In this document: positions 2,326-59,176 of the stretch, in pieces
How the letters are laid out: the number at the start of each line of letters is the position of its first letter
Numbering within the stretch: position 1 is the stretch's first letter
IMG/VR virus record: IMGVR_UViG_2563366947_000002
Length of the DNA stretch: 64,000 bases
Direction: 5' to 3' (one strand)
From: a virus
Taxonomy: Duplodnaviria; Heunggongvirae; Uroviricota; Caudoviricetes
Notes under the pieces: generated by a model
The model's database searches: none
Seen by the model: the letters and a program-made list of their open reading frames with translations, nothing else
What the model was told of the DNA's origin: nothing
Made by a program: the position numbers and the translations under genes

Positions 2326-3125
2326 TCGATCACTCCGTTTTGAGTCGTATCAAAATTCCTGGCAGGTATGCAGTAGTAAAGCGAACCAACATGCTGTGTG
2401 CCGTAGCTAAAAATACGGTGCACGTACCACCAGCGGCGCGCTACGCCGTTTACCATCTCTTCATTCCATTCAAGAATTGAGCCGACGGGGACGTTATTTG
2501 CTGCAATACGCAGAATCAGAACATCATCGGTTAAGCCATCCTGCTCACCGTCTGCGTCAATCGCATGGAAAGAGTCACGCCCGTCAGGGTTATCCAGCAC
2601 ATAAACGATTTCAGGTTCCTGGTAAGTCAGTTCGCGTTGGTTGTTATCCAGTTCAGTGAATGACTCTTCTCCTGTTTCGTCGCTGACTACCCCATATGTG
2701 CCAACATCTGGTCGATATAAGAGAGCCTGAAACGCGTCTGGGCTGGATTCAATAATCAGCATCCAGTCTGCGCGGATTTGGTCGTTAAAGGCTTTATGCC
2801 CGTTATAGCGTGCTTTTAGCTGTGGAGTTGATTCTCTGCCAGCCAGGGAAGGTGGAAGTATGGCTATATCTGATTCGCCAGCATCCGGAGTAAGGCCACC
2901 GTTGCTATCAGCAAAATTATCATGGCTATCAGCTTTGGCGGCGGGTTGCTCTTCCAGAATGCTGAATGAATCCGAACCGGTATTGCCATGTTCCGGCGCG
3001 CCTCCTGCATTCACTTCAATCGGCGCTGGCGTTTCTCTCTGCGTGCTGTCATGTTCTGACTCCTTACTTGCCAGGTTTGCATCGTCAGCAAACCATTCGT
3101 CAAAACGGCCCATAAGCATCCTCAA
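2322..3125 (-). CDS. hypothetical phage structural protein with acidic N-terminal region
   Basis: 267-aa ORF, first gene of minus-strand operon, overlaps next gene by 4 bp. Confidence 0.4.
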   Translation of the reverse strand: MRMLMGRFDEWFADDANLASKESEHDSTQRETPAPIEVNAGGAPEHGNTGSDSFSILEEQPAAKADSHDNFADSNGGLTPDAGESDIAILPPSLAGRESTPQLKARYNGHKAFNDQIRADWMLIIESSPDAFQALLYRPDVGTYGVVSDETGEESFTELDNNQRELTYQEPEIVYVLDNPDGRDSFHAIDADGEQDGLTDDVLILRIAANNVPVGSILEWNEEMVNGVARRWWYVHRIFSYGTQHVGSLYYCIPARNFDTTQNGVIE

Positions 3126-21864: not shown

Positions 21865-22132
21865 ATTACAGGTGCGCGTAGATGAGCTTGAAAAAGAGAA
21901 CGCGAGCCTCAAAAAAATGCTGTCGCGGGCGGAAAGGGAATTATCAGGCAAATTATTGCCAGAAGAACTGCCACCAGCAGATATACCTGATCGAGTGTCC
22001 TGGTGGATGAAGTATTTCCGTGCACCGTGGGAGGCGTTTTGGTGCTACGACCATCGCAGATGGTGTGATGAACTTGATAGCAGTTTTCCCTACTTTGCGG
22101 AAGGGAACACCTGCCCTCAATGCAGGGGATAG
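21849..22132 (+). CDS. hypothetical protein
   Basis: ATG with GAGG SD; ORF track 21767..22132. Confidence 0.35.
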
Positions 22133-22467
22133 CATTTGACGAAATCGATCACCCTATCCTGAACTTCAGAAAGAAGGTCTTTTTCACGCGCCAGGACGTC
22201 AGGATATTGACGTTCTGGCCTTACTAGATGCCGGAGCTTCCCATTAAGCAGAATGGCCTCAGAAAACACTTTTACGCTGTGCTTTATCCCCTCTGTTTCA
22301 CTTTTCAGCGTCAAAATAAAGCGCAATTGCTTATTAGCCTGATTCAGATTCAATACACGAATTTGCAGTTCGTCTATGCTGTTTCGCAATGGGATTGATG
22401 CCACCACACTGGTGCAGTCTCTGATTGTCTGAATTGAACGGCTAACATTGAGAACGTTATTGTGCAT
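22117..22467 (-). CDS. hypothetical protein
   Basis: 116-aa ORF on opposite strand between + blocks. Confidence 0.3.
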   Translation of the reverse strand: MHNNVLNVSRSIQTIRDCTSVVASIPLRNSIDELQIRVLNLNQANKQLRFILTLKSETEGIKHSVKVFSEAILLNGKLRHLVRPERQYPDVLAREKDLLSEVQDRVIDFVKCYPLH

Positions 22468-22619
22468 GTGCCTGATCCACTAACTCCTGGAGGTTTCTTG
22501 TGTCAGATCGAAATATAGCAGCTAAAAGCCAGGAAGAGCGAGACAAGGTGAACGTAGACCTTGCCGCCAGCGGCGTTGCTTACAAACCCCGCTTTCACAA
22601 ACTATGCCTTTTCAATGTA

Positions 22620-22639
22620 TACTGTATGAATAAACAGTA
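22620..22639 (+). promoter_or_regulatory. LexA (SOS) box
   Basis: TACTGTATGAATAAACAGTA = CTGT-N8-ACAG, 19 bp upstream of humD-like start. Confidence 0.7.
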
Positions 22640-22657
22640 TCATTGAGGTAAAACGCT

Positions 22658-23047
22658 ATGGGCTTCCCTTCTCCTGCGGCGGATTATGTTGAAAGCCGAA
22701 TTTCTCTTGATCAGCAACTAATTAGACATCCATCAGCAACCTACTTCATGCGGGCAGCTGATAGCCATCACCGTGAGGGAATATTGCAGGGTGCTTTGCT
22801 GGTGGTTGATTCCTCACTTACTCCGGTTGATGGCTCACTGCTTATATGCGCTATGGAGGGGGAATATCGCGTAAAAAGATACCGGAAGTATCCGCGCCAG
22901 CACCTGGAGGATTTAAGCACCGGGAAGAAAGAGGCGTTACCAGTAGATGACGATGGTTACACGGGTAGTAATGCTGTTTTTGGTGTGATCACTCATGTCA
23001 TCAATGATGCCCGGAGTGGGGAGTTTGATGATTGTCCGGTCATTTAA
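22658..23047 (+). CDS. humD: UmuD'-like protein (HumD homologue)
   Basis: 129 aa S24-peptidase-like C-terminal domain without cleavable N-terminus; precedes phd-doc as I recall in P1. Confidence 0.65.
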   Translation: MGFPSPAADYVESRISLDQQLIRHPSATYFMRAADSHHREGILQGALLVVDSSLTPVDGSLLICAMEGEYRVKRYRKYPRQHLEDLSTGKKEALPVDDDGYTGSNAVFGVITHVINDARSGEFDDCPVI

Positions 23048-23119
23048 GCTGCAAAGTGCTGGTGCTTTATGCCTGTGAAGTTTATAATTGTGTACACATA
23101 ACGAGTACACGAGGTGTTT

Positions 23120-23341
23120 ATGCAATCCATTAACTTCCGTACCGCGCGCGGCAACCTTTCTGAAGTGCTCAACAATGTTGAAGCCGGGGAAGAGGTTGAA
23201 ATCACCCGCAGAGGCCGTGAGCCAGCAGTAATTGTTAGCAAGGCTACTTTTGAAGCCTACAAAAAAGCGGCGCTGGATGCCGAATTTGCATCCCTGTTTG
23301 ACACCCTGGACTCCACCAACAAGGAACTGGTTAACCGATAA
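23120..23341 (+). CDS. phd: Phd antitoxin
   Basis: [49 protein letters not shown]... matches P1 Phd as I recall it; ATGA overlap with doc. Confidence 0.9.
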
Positions 23342-23721
23342 TGAGGCATATATCACCGGAAGAACTTATTGCGCTTCATGATGCGAATATAAGCCGCTAC
23401 GGTGGCCTGCCGGGAATGTCAGATCCGGGTAGGGCAGAGGCCATTATCGGGAGAGTTCAGGCCAGAGTTGCCTACGAAGAGATCAGCGACCTTTTCGAAG
23501 TCTCCGCCACCTACTTGGTGGCTACAGCGAGAGGGCATATATTCAATGATGCCAATAAGCGTACCGCGCTAAACAGTGCGCTGCTATTTCTACGCCGTAA
23601 CGGGGTTCAGGTATTTGATTCACCTGAACTGGCAGACCTTACTGTAGGCGCTGCGACTGGCGAGATATCTGTATCTTCTGTCGCCGACACGTTACGTAGA
23701 TTGTATGGTTCTGCGGAGTAG
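23341..23721 (+). CDS. doc: Doc toxin (Fic-family kinase)
   Basis: 126 aa matching P1 Doc as I recall it, including [11 protein letters not shown] Fic-like motif. Confidence 0.9.
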
Positions 23722-23923
23722 ATTAATGGCACGTAAATACAACAAGTTGTCCCGTGAAGCGTTAAAGATGCTTCTTGATGGCGTGAGTCGCCGCGAGGTA
23801 AAGCAATACCTGGTTGGTAAGCAAATTGGTGCCAGGACCGCTATTGCTGTGTTATGCCGTCAGGAAATGGTTGTGCTTAAACAGAGAATGCTTGGTAGCA
23901 GACAAAGTGCTTCCAGTATTTGA
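23705..23923 (+). CDS. hypothetical small protein
   Basis: 72-aa ORF overlapping doc 3' end; followed by terminator. Confidence 0.3.
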
Positions 23924-23926
23924 AAA

Positions 23927-23960
23927 GAAGCCCGCCATACCAAGCGGGCTTTTTGTTATT
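23927..23960 (+). terminator. rho-independent terminator of humD-phd-doc operon
   Basis: AAGCCCGC-loop-GCGGGCTT hairpin followed by TTTTGTTATT. Confidence 0.65.
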
Positions 23961-24732
23961 CCACCTCTTCTGCCGCTGTATCATTGGACTGTTCTTCTTT
24001 GGCCCGTTCTGCAATCGCCGCACGGCATTTCGCCCTGGCTGTAGCGATTGCTTCTGCTCGCACATCGTCTGGAATCGTTGACGTGATATACATATCCAGT
24101 TCTTCGGCACGGAATACTGTTTGGTCCAGATATTCGCGTAGCATCCAGGTAAATTCGAAATCACACGCGATAATCTCTGCGCCACATTCTGCACCATTTG
24201 GGAAATGAATAAATGCCTGTTTAGCCAAACCGATAACACGACATGCGGTTGCCAAAACAGCGACAACCAGGTTTACATTTTCACACGCTACGGGCTGATT
24301 AACGCCGGAGATTACTCCATTTAACTGTCGGTTATATGGAAGGTAGTTTGAGATGCGTTCTACGCGCCATGTGCCAGTCAGGCTGCCATTCTTAAAGATA
24401 ATTGGTGTAACGGATAGCCCAAGCTCGCGTATAAGTCGTTGCGCTATAGCAGGATCATTAAACATGTCTAATGCTACACATTCGAAAGACTGTGCAAGGG
24501 TAAACAGTTCTTCCAGAGAGTAGTCTTTGCCCCTGGCGGTGATGTAACGATGAACGCCGCTTTCTGCATCGCTCCATATAGCTACGCCATGCTCTTCATT
24601 CAGTTCTTCATTAAAGCCGAGATATGTCATGATAGTGCGTTCAATCGTGTCAAACGGCAGTGACATGTCGGCGTTAACAGCCACCAGCAGGCCATTACGC
24701 AAGCGGTATTGAATTGCTTTAGTATTTTCCAC
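23956..24732 (-). CDS. hypothetical protein
   Basis: 258-aa ORF. Confidence 0.4.
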   Translation of the reverse strand: MENTKAIQYRLRNGLLVAVNADMSLPFDTIERTIMTYLGFNEELNEEHGVAIWSDAESGVHRYITARGKDYSLEELFTLAQSFECVALDMFNDPAIAQRLIRELGLSVTPIIFKNGSLTGTWRVERISNYLPYNRQLNGVISGVNQPVACENVNLVVAVLATACRVIGLAKQAFIHFPNGAECGAEIIACDFEFTWMLREYLDQTVFRAEELDMYITSTIPDDVRAEAIATARAKCRAAIAERAKEEQSNDTAAEEVE

Positions 24733-56202: not shown

Positions 56203-58127
56203 TAAGCACCTCCCTGCTGAATTTCAGCCAGAATGTTGATCAGGTAGTCAACTGCTGCACCAACAGTGGCTTCGTTCTCGTCGTATCGACCTGCACTGAT
56301 TAGAGCGTTTGCTGCTTCCTGCACATGATCAAGTTCAGCACTGATGACCGTCAGATCGCGGGATGTAAACTGCTCCGGCACGGATTTCAGATACTCCAGC
56401 GCTTTATCTGCCTCCTGATCAGCTTCACTTGCTGATTCACCAGCTTCTTCTGGCTCCGGCTCCTGTTCTGGTGCTGGTTGTGGTTGTGATTCCGGCTCAA
56501 CCACATGCTCTGTTTTTACTTCGCTTGAATGATTTTGAAGGGCGTTATACACGTCCATAATGAAAAGGTTCTCCCCATCACCAAGTGGATACGCCACATT
56601 TGGAAACGCTTTGCGGAAAAGAATTTTCACTTGCGCCTTGAATGTTTTCAGGTCACTGCCAAACAGGTCTACATAGCCATCAATATGTTTCGACATGCTG
56701 GACACAACCAATTGGCCTGCAAAATCTTTCAGCTCATCTTCATCAGGAAGATAGAGCAACTCGTACTGGCTGACTTCTTCATCTGTCAGTTTACGGTCAT
56801 ACGTAATGATACCGTGACGAGCATATTCGTAATACTGATCAGCCTGGTCAGGACGATCAAGCACGGCTTTATTTCCATCCGGCACAGCACCAACACCAGC
56901 CGGGCGAGATTGAAGTGCATAGTGGTATTTACCTACATCTTGGCTCTCTGGTTGTGATACTGGGTTCGTCTCGGGGTCTGTCTGTGGTGGTTCGGAGTCT
57001 TCCTGCTGGCCTGGTAACACATCAACTTTATATTTATCTGCGTTATGCTCTCGGTAGGCTTTAAGTAATTTGGTTGCAGCATCTGCCAAACTGCCTCCTT
57101 TGACAGCACTGGCATCAATACTGAATTTACCTTCAGGTGCTACTATCGTAACGAAATTGTCACTGCCGGACGTGACATAATTAACTTCAGCGCCATTATC
57201 CAGCACTGTTTTTCCGTCAATGGCAAGATTATGTTTTACATGTCGCAGCTGGTCACTAAACGCTCGTTCCTTCGTTTTTTCACCTTTAGCAGACAACAAT
57301 TTATCGCGTTTTTCTTGTAATTCCTCGTTGATGGCTTTCTGGGCATCAAGTTTTTTTTGCATCTCCGTAAGAGCAGCACGCTTTTCAGTCAGCCCACGTT
57401 GCGCAACGTCCACCTGATCAATCATTATTGACCGTTCTTCTGCCAGTTTATCTGCTTCATTGAGATAACTCTCAATATCTGCCTTCATTTTGTCCTGGCG
57501 CTCTTTTGCTTTCTTAAATTTTTCGCTGTTACGCTCAATCAAATTAGATAGCGCCTGGCATACCTGGCTTAAAGAAACATCTCTCCCACCAATCGGGGCG
57601 ACAACGTGAGTTACGTTACGCTTATTAAGTAAAAACTGAAATGCAACAAGCTCGTCGTTACTCTTTATTTTTGCCCCGTCAGCTGTTGGAGAGTGGAAAA
57701 TTATGCTTGTACTCTGCCCGTCAGTAAGCGGTATCTGCGCGGTCAAAACAGGGATATTAGCTACCCGACGTACACGACCGATAATCGCACCACCAATACA
57801 ATTACGTCCATTTTCATCGGTCCCGGCTTCATCAGTCCCTGCCATAATATTCGTACCATTCAGGCCACGATTCAGCGCACGGACGAAAGCTCGCATTGTT
57901 TGAGCTAACCGAATTCTGGTTGTAGTTATGGACTCAAACATAGCTTCGTCAGACACAACCAGAATTTCATTGCCCATATAGGCAAGCTCAATATCTTCTA
58001 AGGTCGCCGCCTCAAAAATCAGGTCATCTTCGCTTAATTCTTCTGAAGACCAGCGACTTGGCATATAGCCGGGGATCGTATCAGCAAAAGTAGACTGAAT
58101 ATTAATTCGTAAAGGATTGTTAATCAT
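56202..58127 (-). CDS. large hypothetical virion protein (DarA-like by size/position, tentative)
   Basis: ORF track 56202..58166; ATG at 58127 has GGAGG SD; coiled-coil centre, acidic P/E-rich C-terminal region. Confidence 0.3.
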   Translation of the reverse strand: MINNPLRINIQSTFADTIPGYMPSRWSSEELSEDDLIFEAATLEDIELAYMGNEILVVSDEAMFESITTTRIRLAQTMRAFVRALNRGLNGTNIMAGTDEAGTDENGRNCIGGAIIGRVRRVANIPVLTAQIPLTDGQSTSIIFHSPTADGAKIKSNDELVAFQFLLNKRNVTHVVAPIGGRDVSLSQVCQALSNLIERNSEKFKKAKERQDKMKADIESYLNEADKLAEERSIMIDQVDVAQRGLTEKRAALTEMQKKLDAQKAINEELQEKRDKLLSAKGEKTKERAFSDQLRHVKHNLAIDGKTVLDNGAEVNYVTSGSDNFVTIVAPEGKFSIDASAVKGGSLADAATKLLKAYREHNADKYKVDVLPGQQEDSEPPQTDPETNPVSQPESQDVGKYHYALQSRPAGVGAVPDGNKAVLDRPDQADQYYEYARHGIITYDRKLTDEEVSQYELLYLPDEDELKDFAGQLVVSSMSKHIDGYVDLFGSDLKTFKAQVKILFRKAFPNVAYPLGDGENLFIMDVYNALQNHSSEVKTEHVVEPESQPQPAPEQEPEPEEAGESASEADQEADKALEYLKSVPEQFTSRDLTVISAELDHVQEAANALISAGRYDENEATVGAAVDYLINILAEIQQGGA

Positions 58128-58740
58128 GCTCATCCTCCAGGCGCGCAATTTCTTCTTTAAGAGCACGTGTCTTAGCTACTTCCTGAGACAAGGCAGCTTT
58201 AACGTTACCCGTATCTTGCATTACTTTGTCTGACTTGCTCTGGAGTTTAGACAGTTTGTCGTTAGCATTAGCGATATCTCCACGGAGTGCATCACGTGAT
58301 TCTTTCGCTTCAGCTAATTTCTGAGCGTTAGATTTAACTCCCTGCTGCTTCTTATTTCCGTCATCAATATTTTTTGCTGCACGAGCAAGTTTTCGAGCTA
58401 ATGACTTCTGGAAAGAAGTTGCTCCGCGATTAAATAAAGCCGCAAGAGATTGCCCCAAAGCCGACATTGTTTTTACTGGCTTGAACGGTACTGTTTTACC
58501 ATTCAGTTTGATCCCAGATATATCACCGGTATCGTTAACCTGAACTTCCATTGTCTGTTCATCAATACCAATAAGGGTAAACGTGCGCGTCATGATCCCA
58601 TCTTTCTTCCTGCCATTACTTGCAGGGATCACCCTCGCTATCTTGTAACCACCTTTGCTGATTTCTTTGACGAGTTTTGCCAGCCCCTTTTCGTTTAACT
58701 CATCATAATTAAGAAGAACATAATTATTCTTATTTGACAT
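58120..58740 (-). CDS. hypothetical protein
   Basis: ORF track 58120..58755; ATG at 58740 has AAGGAG SD. Confidence 0.4.
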   Translation of the reverse strand: MSNKNNYVLLNYDELNEKGLAKLVKEISKGGYKIARVIPASNGRKKDGIMTRTFTLIGIDEQTMEVQVNDTGDISGIKLNGKTVPFKPVKTMSALGQSLAALFNRGATSFQKSLARKLARAAKNIDDGNKKQQGVKSNAQKLAEAKESRDALRGDIANANDKLSKLQSKSDKVMQDTGNVKAALSQEVAKTRALKEEIARLEDEHD

Positions 58741-59176
58741 CCCAGTCTCCTTCACGCTTTTCGATCGTAAACTGGCGCTCTATGCAGTCATTGATAGGGA
58801 AAATGCGATAAAGCGGATTCAGTCGGCAGTTACCGTTAGTCAATGTGACTTTCAGATCCCACTTCGTTGGCTCAAGATATTTCGTATCGATGAGCAAATA
58901 CTCTTCTCTCTCACCGCGTTTTGAGGCGTCAACTGGTCGCGTTTTCCCTGAAATAACCACAGATGGATTTTTCAGGTCTTGCAACCAATATTCGATTTGA
59001 GCATTGCTGACCCAGCTTCGCTTAACACGTAGCGAAACAGGAAATGCTATAGCGGATTCTTTCACTACAGCGTCACCAATACTCAAAATCTCAACACTCT
59101 TGCGACGAAAAATGAAACGGTCAATGATGGCAACAAATGCCATGATAAAAATGAAATAATTTCCAAAGTTACCCAT
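58730..59176 (-). CDS. membrane-anchored protein (possible antiholin/lysis regulator by position)
   Basis: 148 aa with N-terminal transmembrane helix; TAATG overlap with upstream gene. Confidence 0.3.
   Translation of the reverse strand: MGNFGNYFIFIMAFVAIIDRFIFRRKSVEILSIGDAVVKESAIAFPVSLRVKRSWVSNAQIEYWLQDLKNPSVVISGKTRPVDASKRGEREEYLLIDTKYLEPTKWDLKVTLTNGNCRLNPLYRIFPINDCIERQFTIEKREGDWDVK

What the first reader, a model, noticed from the sequence alone, without database searches (positions are those of the whole stretch)
22620..22639. LexA box directly upstream of the humD-phd-doc operon
A near-consensus SOS box (CTGT-N8-ACAG within TACTGTATGAATAAACAGTA) overlaps the likely promoter 19 bp before the humD-like start. 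The UmuD'-like protein, and possibly the addiction module downstream, would then be induced by DNA damage.
Basis: partly seen in the sequence, partly recalled or inferred. Interest (0 to 1): 0.45.

Follow-up and report, generated by a model that had tools for sequence, protein, structure and literature searches.

The report
Known LexA box before phage humD
This is the SOS (LexA) operator already annotated in front of the humD gene of phage P1, found here in a P1/D6-like plasmid prophage; it is real and conserved but ordinary.

Summary
The 20-mer TACTGTATGAATAAACAGTA is at 22620-22639, ending 18 nt before the humD ATG at 22658. It is the only site in the 64-kb window within 3 mismatches of the LexA consensus, against 0 of 100 shuffles. 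The window is a P1-like phage-plasmid (D6 99%, RCS47 97.5%, P1/P7 about 97%). The homologous site is already annotated as a LexA binding site in the P1 and P7 GenBank records, so this is known, though as a prediction. All 85 close humD loci with enough upstream sequence carry a box 36-39 bp before the ATG. So do humD-like genes of unrelated phages such as N15, phiKO2, HK639, BTP1 and yong1. The box arms are the only conserved island in otherwise unrelated upstream DNA. The one sigma-70-like promoter found (TTCACA-18-TATACT, 22594-22623) has its -10 straddling the left arm, so bound LexA should block it. The "humD-phd-doc operon" part is only partly right. The humD-phd spacer is identical to P1's and holds phd-doc's own promoter, and many relatives carry box and humD without phd-doc. 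No terminator follows humD, so SOS read-through into phd-doc remains possible but untested. No LexA-binding or expression experiment was found or could be run.

The parts
22594..22599 (+). predicted -35 hexamer TTCACA of the humD promoter
   Evidence: This is the only sigma-70-like hit in 22000-24200 (10 of 12 matches, 18-bp spacer). The same hexamer at the same spacing is seen in RCS47-type loci, and TTCACA also occurs in yong1 and pAEv1818. Prediction only.
22618..22623 (+). predicted -10 hexamer TATACT, made of two bases plus the first four bases of the LexA box
   Evidence: The hexamer is TATACT in 82 of 92 humD and humD-like loci tallied, and NNTACT in distant relatives. A transcription start would fall near 22630, inside the box (inference).
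22620..22639 (.). LexA operator (SOS box) TACTGTATGAATAAACAGTA
   Evidence: It is homologous to the protein_bind 'LexA' features of P1 (87545..87564) and P7. The arms are invariant and the spacer variable across 8 phages. Across 13 lineages the arm positions not fixed by the search pattern are 91% conserved, against 49% in the flanks.
22645..22649 (+). Shine-Dalgarno GAGGT, 8 nt before the humD ATG
   Evidence: Read from the sequence. It is conserved in relatives.
22658..23047 (+). humD, which encodes a ready-made UmuD'-like protein of 129 aa
   Evidence: Pfam Peptidase_S24, E 8.9e-9. PHROG UmuD-like, E 4e-55. Residue 2 aligns with residue 1 of UmuD' (1umu) and residue 25 of full-length UmuD (8gmt_B). 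It is about 98% identical to P1 and P7 HumD.
22500..22646 (+). truncated hot (Pol III theta homologue) remnant whose reading frame runs through the LexA box
   Evidence: Pfam DNA_pol3_theta matches residues 5-33 only. A 217-bp deletion relative to RCS47 is shared with D6.
23060..23088 (+). Pphd, the phd-doc operon's own sigma-70 promoter (-35 TGGTGC, -10 TATAAT)
   Evidence: The spacer 23045-23125 is 100% identical to P1, where this promoter is annotated. The palindromes GTGTACAC (23090-23097) and GAGTACAC (23103-23110) are the Phd/Doc operator sites as I recall them from the literature (own knowledge).
23120..23341 (+). phd antitoxin
   Evidence: Pfam PhdYeFM_antitox, E 2.8e-13; P1 synteny.
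23341..23721 (+). doc toxin
   Evidence: Pfam Fic/DOC, E 4.7e-9; P1 synteny.

Best explanation
The 20-bp palindrome at 22620-22639 is an operator for the host LexA repressor. It lies on the -10 hexamer and the predicted transcription start of the humD promoter (TTCACA-N18-TATACT). In an undamaged lysogen a LexA dimer bound there would keep RNA polymerase off the promoter, so humD is silent. After DNA damage, RecA filaments trigger LexA self-cleavage and the promoter is freed. The prophage then makes HumD, a UmuD' look-alike that needs no RecA-mediated cleavage. HumD can join host UmuC, which is itself SOS-induced, to give translesion synthesis earlier than host UmuD processing allows. Shown here: the site, its statistical strength, its conservation and fixed position, the overlap with the predicted promoter, and the UmuD'-like N-terminus of HumD. 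Inferred: LexA binding, SOS induction, and the physiological benefit. phd-doc downstream is driven mainly by its own autoregulated promoter, and any SOS input to it would come only from read-through.
For: Site strength: it is unique in the window and appears in 0 of 100 shuffles. Its approximate heterology index is 3.1, and no site that good appeared in 300 simulations. Prior annotation: P1 labels the homologous site 'LexA binding site in the regulatory region of lxr and humD', and P7 labels it 'regulation of humD expression'. phiKO2 annotates a lexA binding site before its UmuD-like gene. A 2022 paper calls humD a LexA-regulated SOS gene (PMC9603915). Conservation: the arms are invariant and the spacer variable in 8 phages. 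All 85 close humD loci with enough upstream sequence have a box at -36 to -39, in 12 sequence variants. Homologues of 44-68% identity in N15, Ecl_MII_003, HK639, BTP1, APC_JM3.2, yong1 and pAEv1818 have a box 14-17 bp (21 bp in pAEv1818) before the ATG, in otherwise unrelated upstream DNA. Promoter: the only hit in the region overlaps the box, and the NNTACT -10 recurs across lineages. Geometry: the box-to-ATG distance resembles that of full-length phage umuDC operons, where the box TACTGTATATAAAAACAGTA lies about 20 bp before the inferred umuD ATG. HumD starts at the UmuD' cleavage point.
Against: No LexA-binding or expression data for this site were found in the searchable literature. The primary P1 papers are not held. 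The promoter is only a consensus match with a long 18-bp spacer. The P1 record places its predicted PhumD about 440 bp upstream, not at the box, although that region is absent from this window. The heterology-index matrix was rebuilt from memory and is approximate. Most close relatives are nearly identical, so the weight of the conservation argument rests on roughly 8 distant lineages.
Confidence: 0.85

Rival explanations
1. One SOS-controlled operon: LexA at this box governs humD, phd and doc together, so DNA damage induces the addiction module.
For: No intrinsic terminator is predicted between humD and phd. The spacer RNA folds no better than shuffled sequence, z = 0.32. The genes are co-directional and only 72 bp apart.
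Against: The spacer is identical to P1's and carries the annotated sigma-70 promoter Pphd with a perfect TATAAT. By my own knowledge of the Phd/Doc literature, that promoter is autoregulated by Phd-Doc, which would buffer extra transcription. D6 has another ORF between humD and phd. Many relatives have box and humD without phd-doc, and N15 and phiKO2 annotate a terminator right after the gene.
Confidence: 0.12
2. The box chiefly controls a divergent gene on the minus strand, as P1's annotation proposes for lxr. Here that gene would be the 116-aa ORF at 22117-22467.
For: The P1 record names the site as regulatory for both lxr and humD, with lxr starting 136 bp away. In phiKO2 the LexA sites lie between a divergent dinI-like gene and the umuD-like gene. 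In this window the minus-strand ORF starts 153 bp from the box.
Against: The 116-aa ORF is unrelated to Lxr (BLASTP E 3.8), and the lxr region is absent from the window. No minus-strand promoter is predicted in 22000-24200. In RCS47 the same ORF lies 217 bp further from the box, with a full-length hot gene in between. The only partner that stays constant across lineages is humD.
Confidence: 0.05
3. It is a chance AT-rich palindrome, or a site for another protein such as a phage repressor, with no role for LexA.
For: The 16-bp core alone is expected 0.52 times per window. No binding data are available.
Against: The full 20-mer never arose in shuffles or simulations. The LexA-contact arms are kept while the spacer drifts, and this holds in 13 lineages with unrelated flanks. 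The chance of CTG-N10-CAG falling within 70 bp upstream of a gene is about 0.02 per locus (my estimate), yet it is present in all the distant lineages checked.
Confidence: 0.02

Closest known systems
LexA binding site upstream of humD in bacteriophage P1 and P7 (GenBank AF234172 87545..87564; AF503408 94404..94423)
   Same: It is the homologous site at the same position relative to humD. Both arms are the same and the spacer differs at two positions (ATGAATAA here, ATAAATGA in P1). The humD, Pphd, phd and doc genes downstream are the same.
   Different: The upstream context differs. P1 has the divergent lxr gene and a predicted PhumD 440 bp away. This window has no lxr; instead it has a truncated hot gene joined 6 bp upstream of a better -35 (TTCACA against TGCACC). 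The P1 reference has TGTACT where this window and most natural loci have TATACT.
umuDC and mucAB-type SOS operators of E. coli and plasmids
   Same: The consensus class is the same (TACTGT-N8-ACAGTA), with similar predicted strength and a similar distance to the start codon. The phage umuDC operons in L097 and L098 carry TACTGTATATAAAAACAGTA about 20 bp before the inferred umuD ATG. The regulated product belongs to the same protein family.
   Different: The regulated gene encodes only the already-shortened UmuD' form, and no umuC follows it. RecA-dependent activation of the product is therefore bypassed, which leaves LexA as the only damage-dependent control (inference).
LexA-box plus umuD'-only cassettes of other temperate phages (N15 gene 26, phiKO2 gp23, HK639, BTP1 and others)
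   Same: Each has a box a few tens of bp upstream of an ATG-GGN-TTY-CCN (M-G-F-P) start, and the cassette appears as a stand-alone accessory gene.
   Different: Protein identity is only 44-68%. The flanks are unrelated (tail fibre, integrase or partition genes). N15 and phiKO2 annotate a terminator after the gene, whereas here the gene is followed directly by phd-doc.

Membership tests
E. coli-type LexA operator (SOS box) | Palindromic core CTGT-N8-ACAG within the 20-bp consensus TACTG(TA)5CAGTA | tested here: met
   The core is perfect and 17 of 20 bases match the consensus.
E. coli-type LexA operator (SOS box) | Heterology index in the range of proven operators (recalled threshold about 12.6) | tested here: met
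   The index is about 3.1 with a matrix rebuilt from recalled operators, so it is approximate. The proven sites used to build the matrix score 1-12.7. No site that good appeared in 300 simulated windows.
E. coli-type LexA operator (SOS box) | Overlap with the promoter or transcription start of the regulated gene | tested here: inconclusive
   The only predicted promoter overlaps the box with its -10. The transcription start has not been mapped.
E. coli-type LexA operator (SOS box) | LexA binds the site in vitro or in vivo | not testable with these tools
   No EMSA, footprint or ChIP data were found.
E. coli-type LexA operator (SOS box) | Expression of the downstream gene rises on SOS induction and is blocked in lexA(Ind-) | not testable with these tools
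   The one accessible paper that measured humD by qPCR used thermal induction of the lytic cycle, not DNA damage.
HumD / UmuD'-like proteins (Peptidase S24) | S24 domain homologous to UmuD | tested here: met
   Pfam PF00717 scores 35.5 bits against a cut-off of 23.3. UmuD' structure 1umu matches with E 1.2e-23.
HumD / UmuD'-like proteins (Peptidase S24) | The protein starts at the position of the UmuD Cys24/Gly25 cleavage site, so it is the ready-made UmuD' form | tested here: met
   Residue 2 (Gly) aligns with residue 25 of full-length UmuD (8gmt_B) and residue 1 of UmuD'.
HumD / UmuD'-like proteins (Peptidase S24) | No cognate umuC gene downstream | tested here: met
   The next genes are phd and doc.
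Single humD-phd-doc operon under LexA | No independent promoter for the downstream genes | tested here: not met
   Pphd is annotated in P1, and the spacer here is 100% identical to P1's.
Single humD-phd-doc operon under LexA | The genes stay linked in relatives | tested here: not met
   D6 has an inserted ORF between humD and phd. Cyrano, PhiR41_1, N15 and phiKO2 carry humD without phd-doc.
Single humD-phd-doc operon under LexA | A transcript runs from humD into phd | not testable with these tools
   No terminator is predicted, so read-through is possible but unproven.

The most novel reading that the evidence does not exclude
humD is followed by no terminator, and the box-overlapping promoter here has a better -35 than P1's. 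SOS derepression could therefore send transcripts through Pphd into phd-doc, tying the addiction module's toxin-antitoxin balance to DNA damage in this P1/D6-like lineage.
Probability: 0.1. Interest if true: 0.4.

Novelty: already known. Interest (0 to 1): 0.1.

Why it matters
It matters little beyond correct annotation. The site explains how a plasmid prophage keeps a ready-made mutagenesis factor silent until the host's SOS response is on, which was already proposed for P1. Three small additions come from this work. The promoter most likely controlled is the one whose -10 straddles the box, not the far-upstream PhumD predicted in the P1 record. The same box-plus-gene layout recurs in many unrelated temperate phages. 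The cassette is very common, matching 1437 plasmid records.

Tried and rejected
The primary P1 papers could not be read: the P1 genome paper and the 1999 HumD paper, under the PMC ids I tried, are not held. Literature searches for experimental LexA binding at humD found only statements of regulation and a qPCR primer table. One search failed on a term shorter than three characters and another on a term containing an apostrophe. I tested whether the minus-strand 116-aa ORF is an Lxr homologue; it is not. I looked for P1's annotated PhumD and lxr region in the window; it is absent. I looked for a terminator between humD and phd; there is none. I considered a -10 inside the box (TATGAA), but no acceptable -35 lies at 16-19 bp by my own reading, so I rejected it in favour of TATACT. 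I followed the second LexA-like site, inside the RepL-like gene, into relatives. It is kept in 21 of 22, but coding constraint could explain that, and one relative deletes it, so I make no claim.

Full report
**Observation.** The sequence TACTGTATGAATAAACAGTA lies at exactly 22620-22639. It ends 18 nt before the ATG at 22658 of a 129-aa ORF.

- The 16-bp core CTGT-N8-ACAG occurs once in the window, but it is not rare by itself: 0.52 are expected, and 44 of 100 shuffles contain one.
- The full 20-mer is the significant feature. It is the only site within 3 mismatches of TACTG(TA)5CAGTA, and 0 of 100 shuffles contain one.
- I rebuilt a heterology-index matrix from 21 E. coli and plasmid operators recalled from memory. 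It is approximate: where I remember published values, it reproduces them within about one unit.
- With that matrix the site scores 3.1, close to umuDC (2.2) and mucAB (2.9). No site that good arose in 300 Markov-simulated 64-kb windows.

**Identity of the locus.** The ORF after the box is a Peptidase_S24 protein.

- Its residue 2 aligns with residue 1 of the UmuD' crystal structure and with residue 25 of full-length UmuD. The protein is therefore Met plus the ready-made UmuD' form.
- It is followed by Phd (23120-23341) and Doc (23341-23721).
- Megablast shows the region is 99% identical to phage D6, 97.5% to RCS47, and about 97% to P1 and P7 from 22610 onward.
- It matches 1437 plasmid records. 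The window is therefore a common P1/D6-like phage-plasmid.

**Already known.** The P1 GenBank record annotates the homologous 20 bp (87545..87564) as "LexA binding site in the regulatory region of lxr and humD". The P7 record annotates it as LexA, "regulation of humD expression". phiKO2 annotates a lexA binding site before its UmuD-like gene. A 2022 survey of P1-like phage-plasmids calls humD a LexA-regulated SOS gene (PMC9603915). I found no accessible paper reporting LexA binding or SOS-dependent expression. The one accessible study that measured humD, phd and hot by qPCR used thermal induction of the lytic cycle (PMC4713147). The original P1 papers are not in the library. From memory, the 1999 HumD paper showed that HumD substitutes for UmuD' and is poorly expressed in vivo.

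**Comparative evidence.**

- In an alignment of eight phages, both arms (TACTGT and ACAGTA) are invariant. The central eight bases vary and the sequence further upstream is unalignable.
- All 85 close humD loci with enough upstream sequence (phage records plus IMG/VR) carry a CTG-N10-CAG box starting 36-39 bp before the ATG. There are 12 sequence variants, and the changes are concentrated in the spacer.
- Homologues of only 44-68% identity in unrelated temperate phages (N15, Ecl_MII_003, HK639, BTP1, APC_JM3.2, Hafnia yong1) have a box ending 14-17 bp before the ATG. In pAEv1818 the box ends 21 bp before the annotated start.
- phiKO2 has two boxes further upstream, and HK140 has one before an upstream ORF.
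- I anchored 13 lineages on the box. The arm positions not forced by the search pattern are 91% conserved, against 49% in the flanks and 69% in the spacer.
- Phage-borne full-length umuDC operons carry TACTGTATATAAAAACAGTA about 20 bp before the inferred umuD ATG. The humD cassette therefore looks like an umuD gene that lost its first 24 codons but kept its operator geometry (inference).

**Promoter.**

- The only sigma-70-like match in 22000-24200 is TTCACA (22594-22599), an 18-bp spacer, then TATACT (22618-22623) on the plus strand.
- Its -10 consists of two bases plus the first four bases of the box, which puts the expected start near 22630, inside the operator.
- The same hexamer position reads TATACT in 82 of 92 humD and humD-like loci tallied, and NNTACT with a plausible -35 at 16-18 bp in most distant relatives.
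- The P1 record's "predicted PhumD" lies 440 bp upstream inside lxr, and that region has no counterpart in this window. Here the box-overlapping promoter is the only candidate.

**Mechanism (inferred).** LexA bound at the box occludes the -10 and the transcription start. RecA-stimulated LexA cleavage after DNA damage frees the promoter. HumD then pairs with SOS-induced host UmuC without waiting for UmuD processing.

**The operon claim.**

- The humD-phd spacer (23045-23125) is 100% identical to P1's. It contains the annotated sigma-70 promoter Pphd (-35 at 23060-23065, TATAAT at 23083-23088).
- It also contains the two palindromes I recall as the Phd/Doc operator.
- D6 has an extra ORF between humD and phd.
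- Cyrano, PhiR41_1, CMS-2020a, N15 and phiKO2 carry box and humD without phd-doc, and N15 and phiKO2 annotate a terminator after the gene.
- Box plus humD is therefore a self-contained module, and phd-doc has its own control.
- No terminator is predicted after humD here, and the spacer RNA is unstructured (z = 0.32). SOS read-through into phd-doc is possible but untested.

**Divergent-gene rival.** P1's annotation also assigns the box to the divergent lxr gene. Here lxr is absent. The minus-strand 116-aa ORF (22117-22467) is unrelated to Lxr and belongs to a PHROG of unknown function. No minus-strand promoter is predicted. In RCS47 that ORF lies 217 bp further from the box.

**Verdict.** The feature is an already annotated, widespread SOS operator of the P1 family. 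Interest is low.

Noticed in passing
window 22500-22646 (+), junction near 22587: The hot gene (Pol III theta homologue) is truncated to 48 aa by a 217-bp deletion relative to RCS47, between two TACAAA copies; D6 shares the deletion. The deletion ends 6 bp upstream of the humD -35. The remnant reading frame runs through the LexA box and stops inside the humD Shine-Dalgarno.
   Followed up: yes
Its approximate heterology index is 6.6, with 0.003 such sites expected per window. It lies inside the RepL-like lytic replication gene. It is kept in 21 of 22 IMG/VR relatives and removed by an in-frame 15-bp deletion in one, and coding constraint could explain the retention.
   Followed up: partly
window 58489-58508, inside ORF 58120-58755 (-): A third, weaker LexA-like site, TACTGTTTTACCATTCAGTT, has an approximate heterology index of 10.1 with 0.047 expected per window. 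It lies inside an Hdf-like antirestriction gene.
   Followed up: no
L001 (P1 AF234172) 1508-1513, compared with window 22618-22623: The sequenced P1 reference has TGTACT where this window and 82 of the 92 loci tallied have TATACT as the -10 straddling the box. This may be a promoter-down change in the laboratory strain, and it would fit the poor HumD expression I recall being reported.
   Followed up: partly
L001 (P1) 1045-1071, compared with the window: P1's annotated 'predicted sigma 70 promoter PhumD' lies 440 bp upstream of the LexA site, inside lxr. It has no counterpart in this window, which suggests the annotation does not mark the conserved humD promoter.
   Followed up: yes
L003 (D6) 2583-3005: Phage D6 carries an extra 423-bp ORF between humD and phd. 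It is absent from this window, P1 and RCS47, so this window is not simply D6.
   Followed up: no
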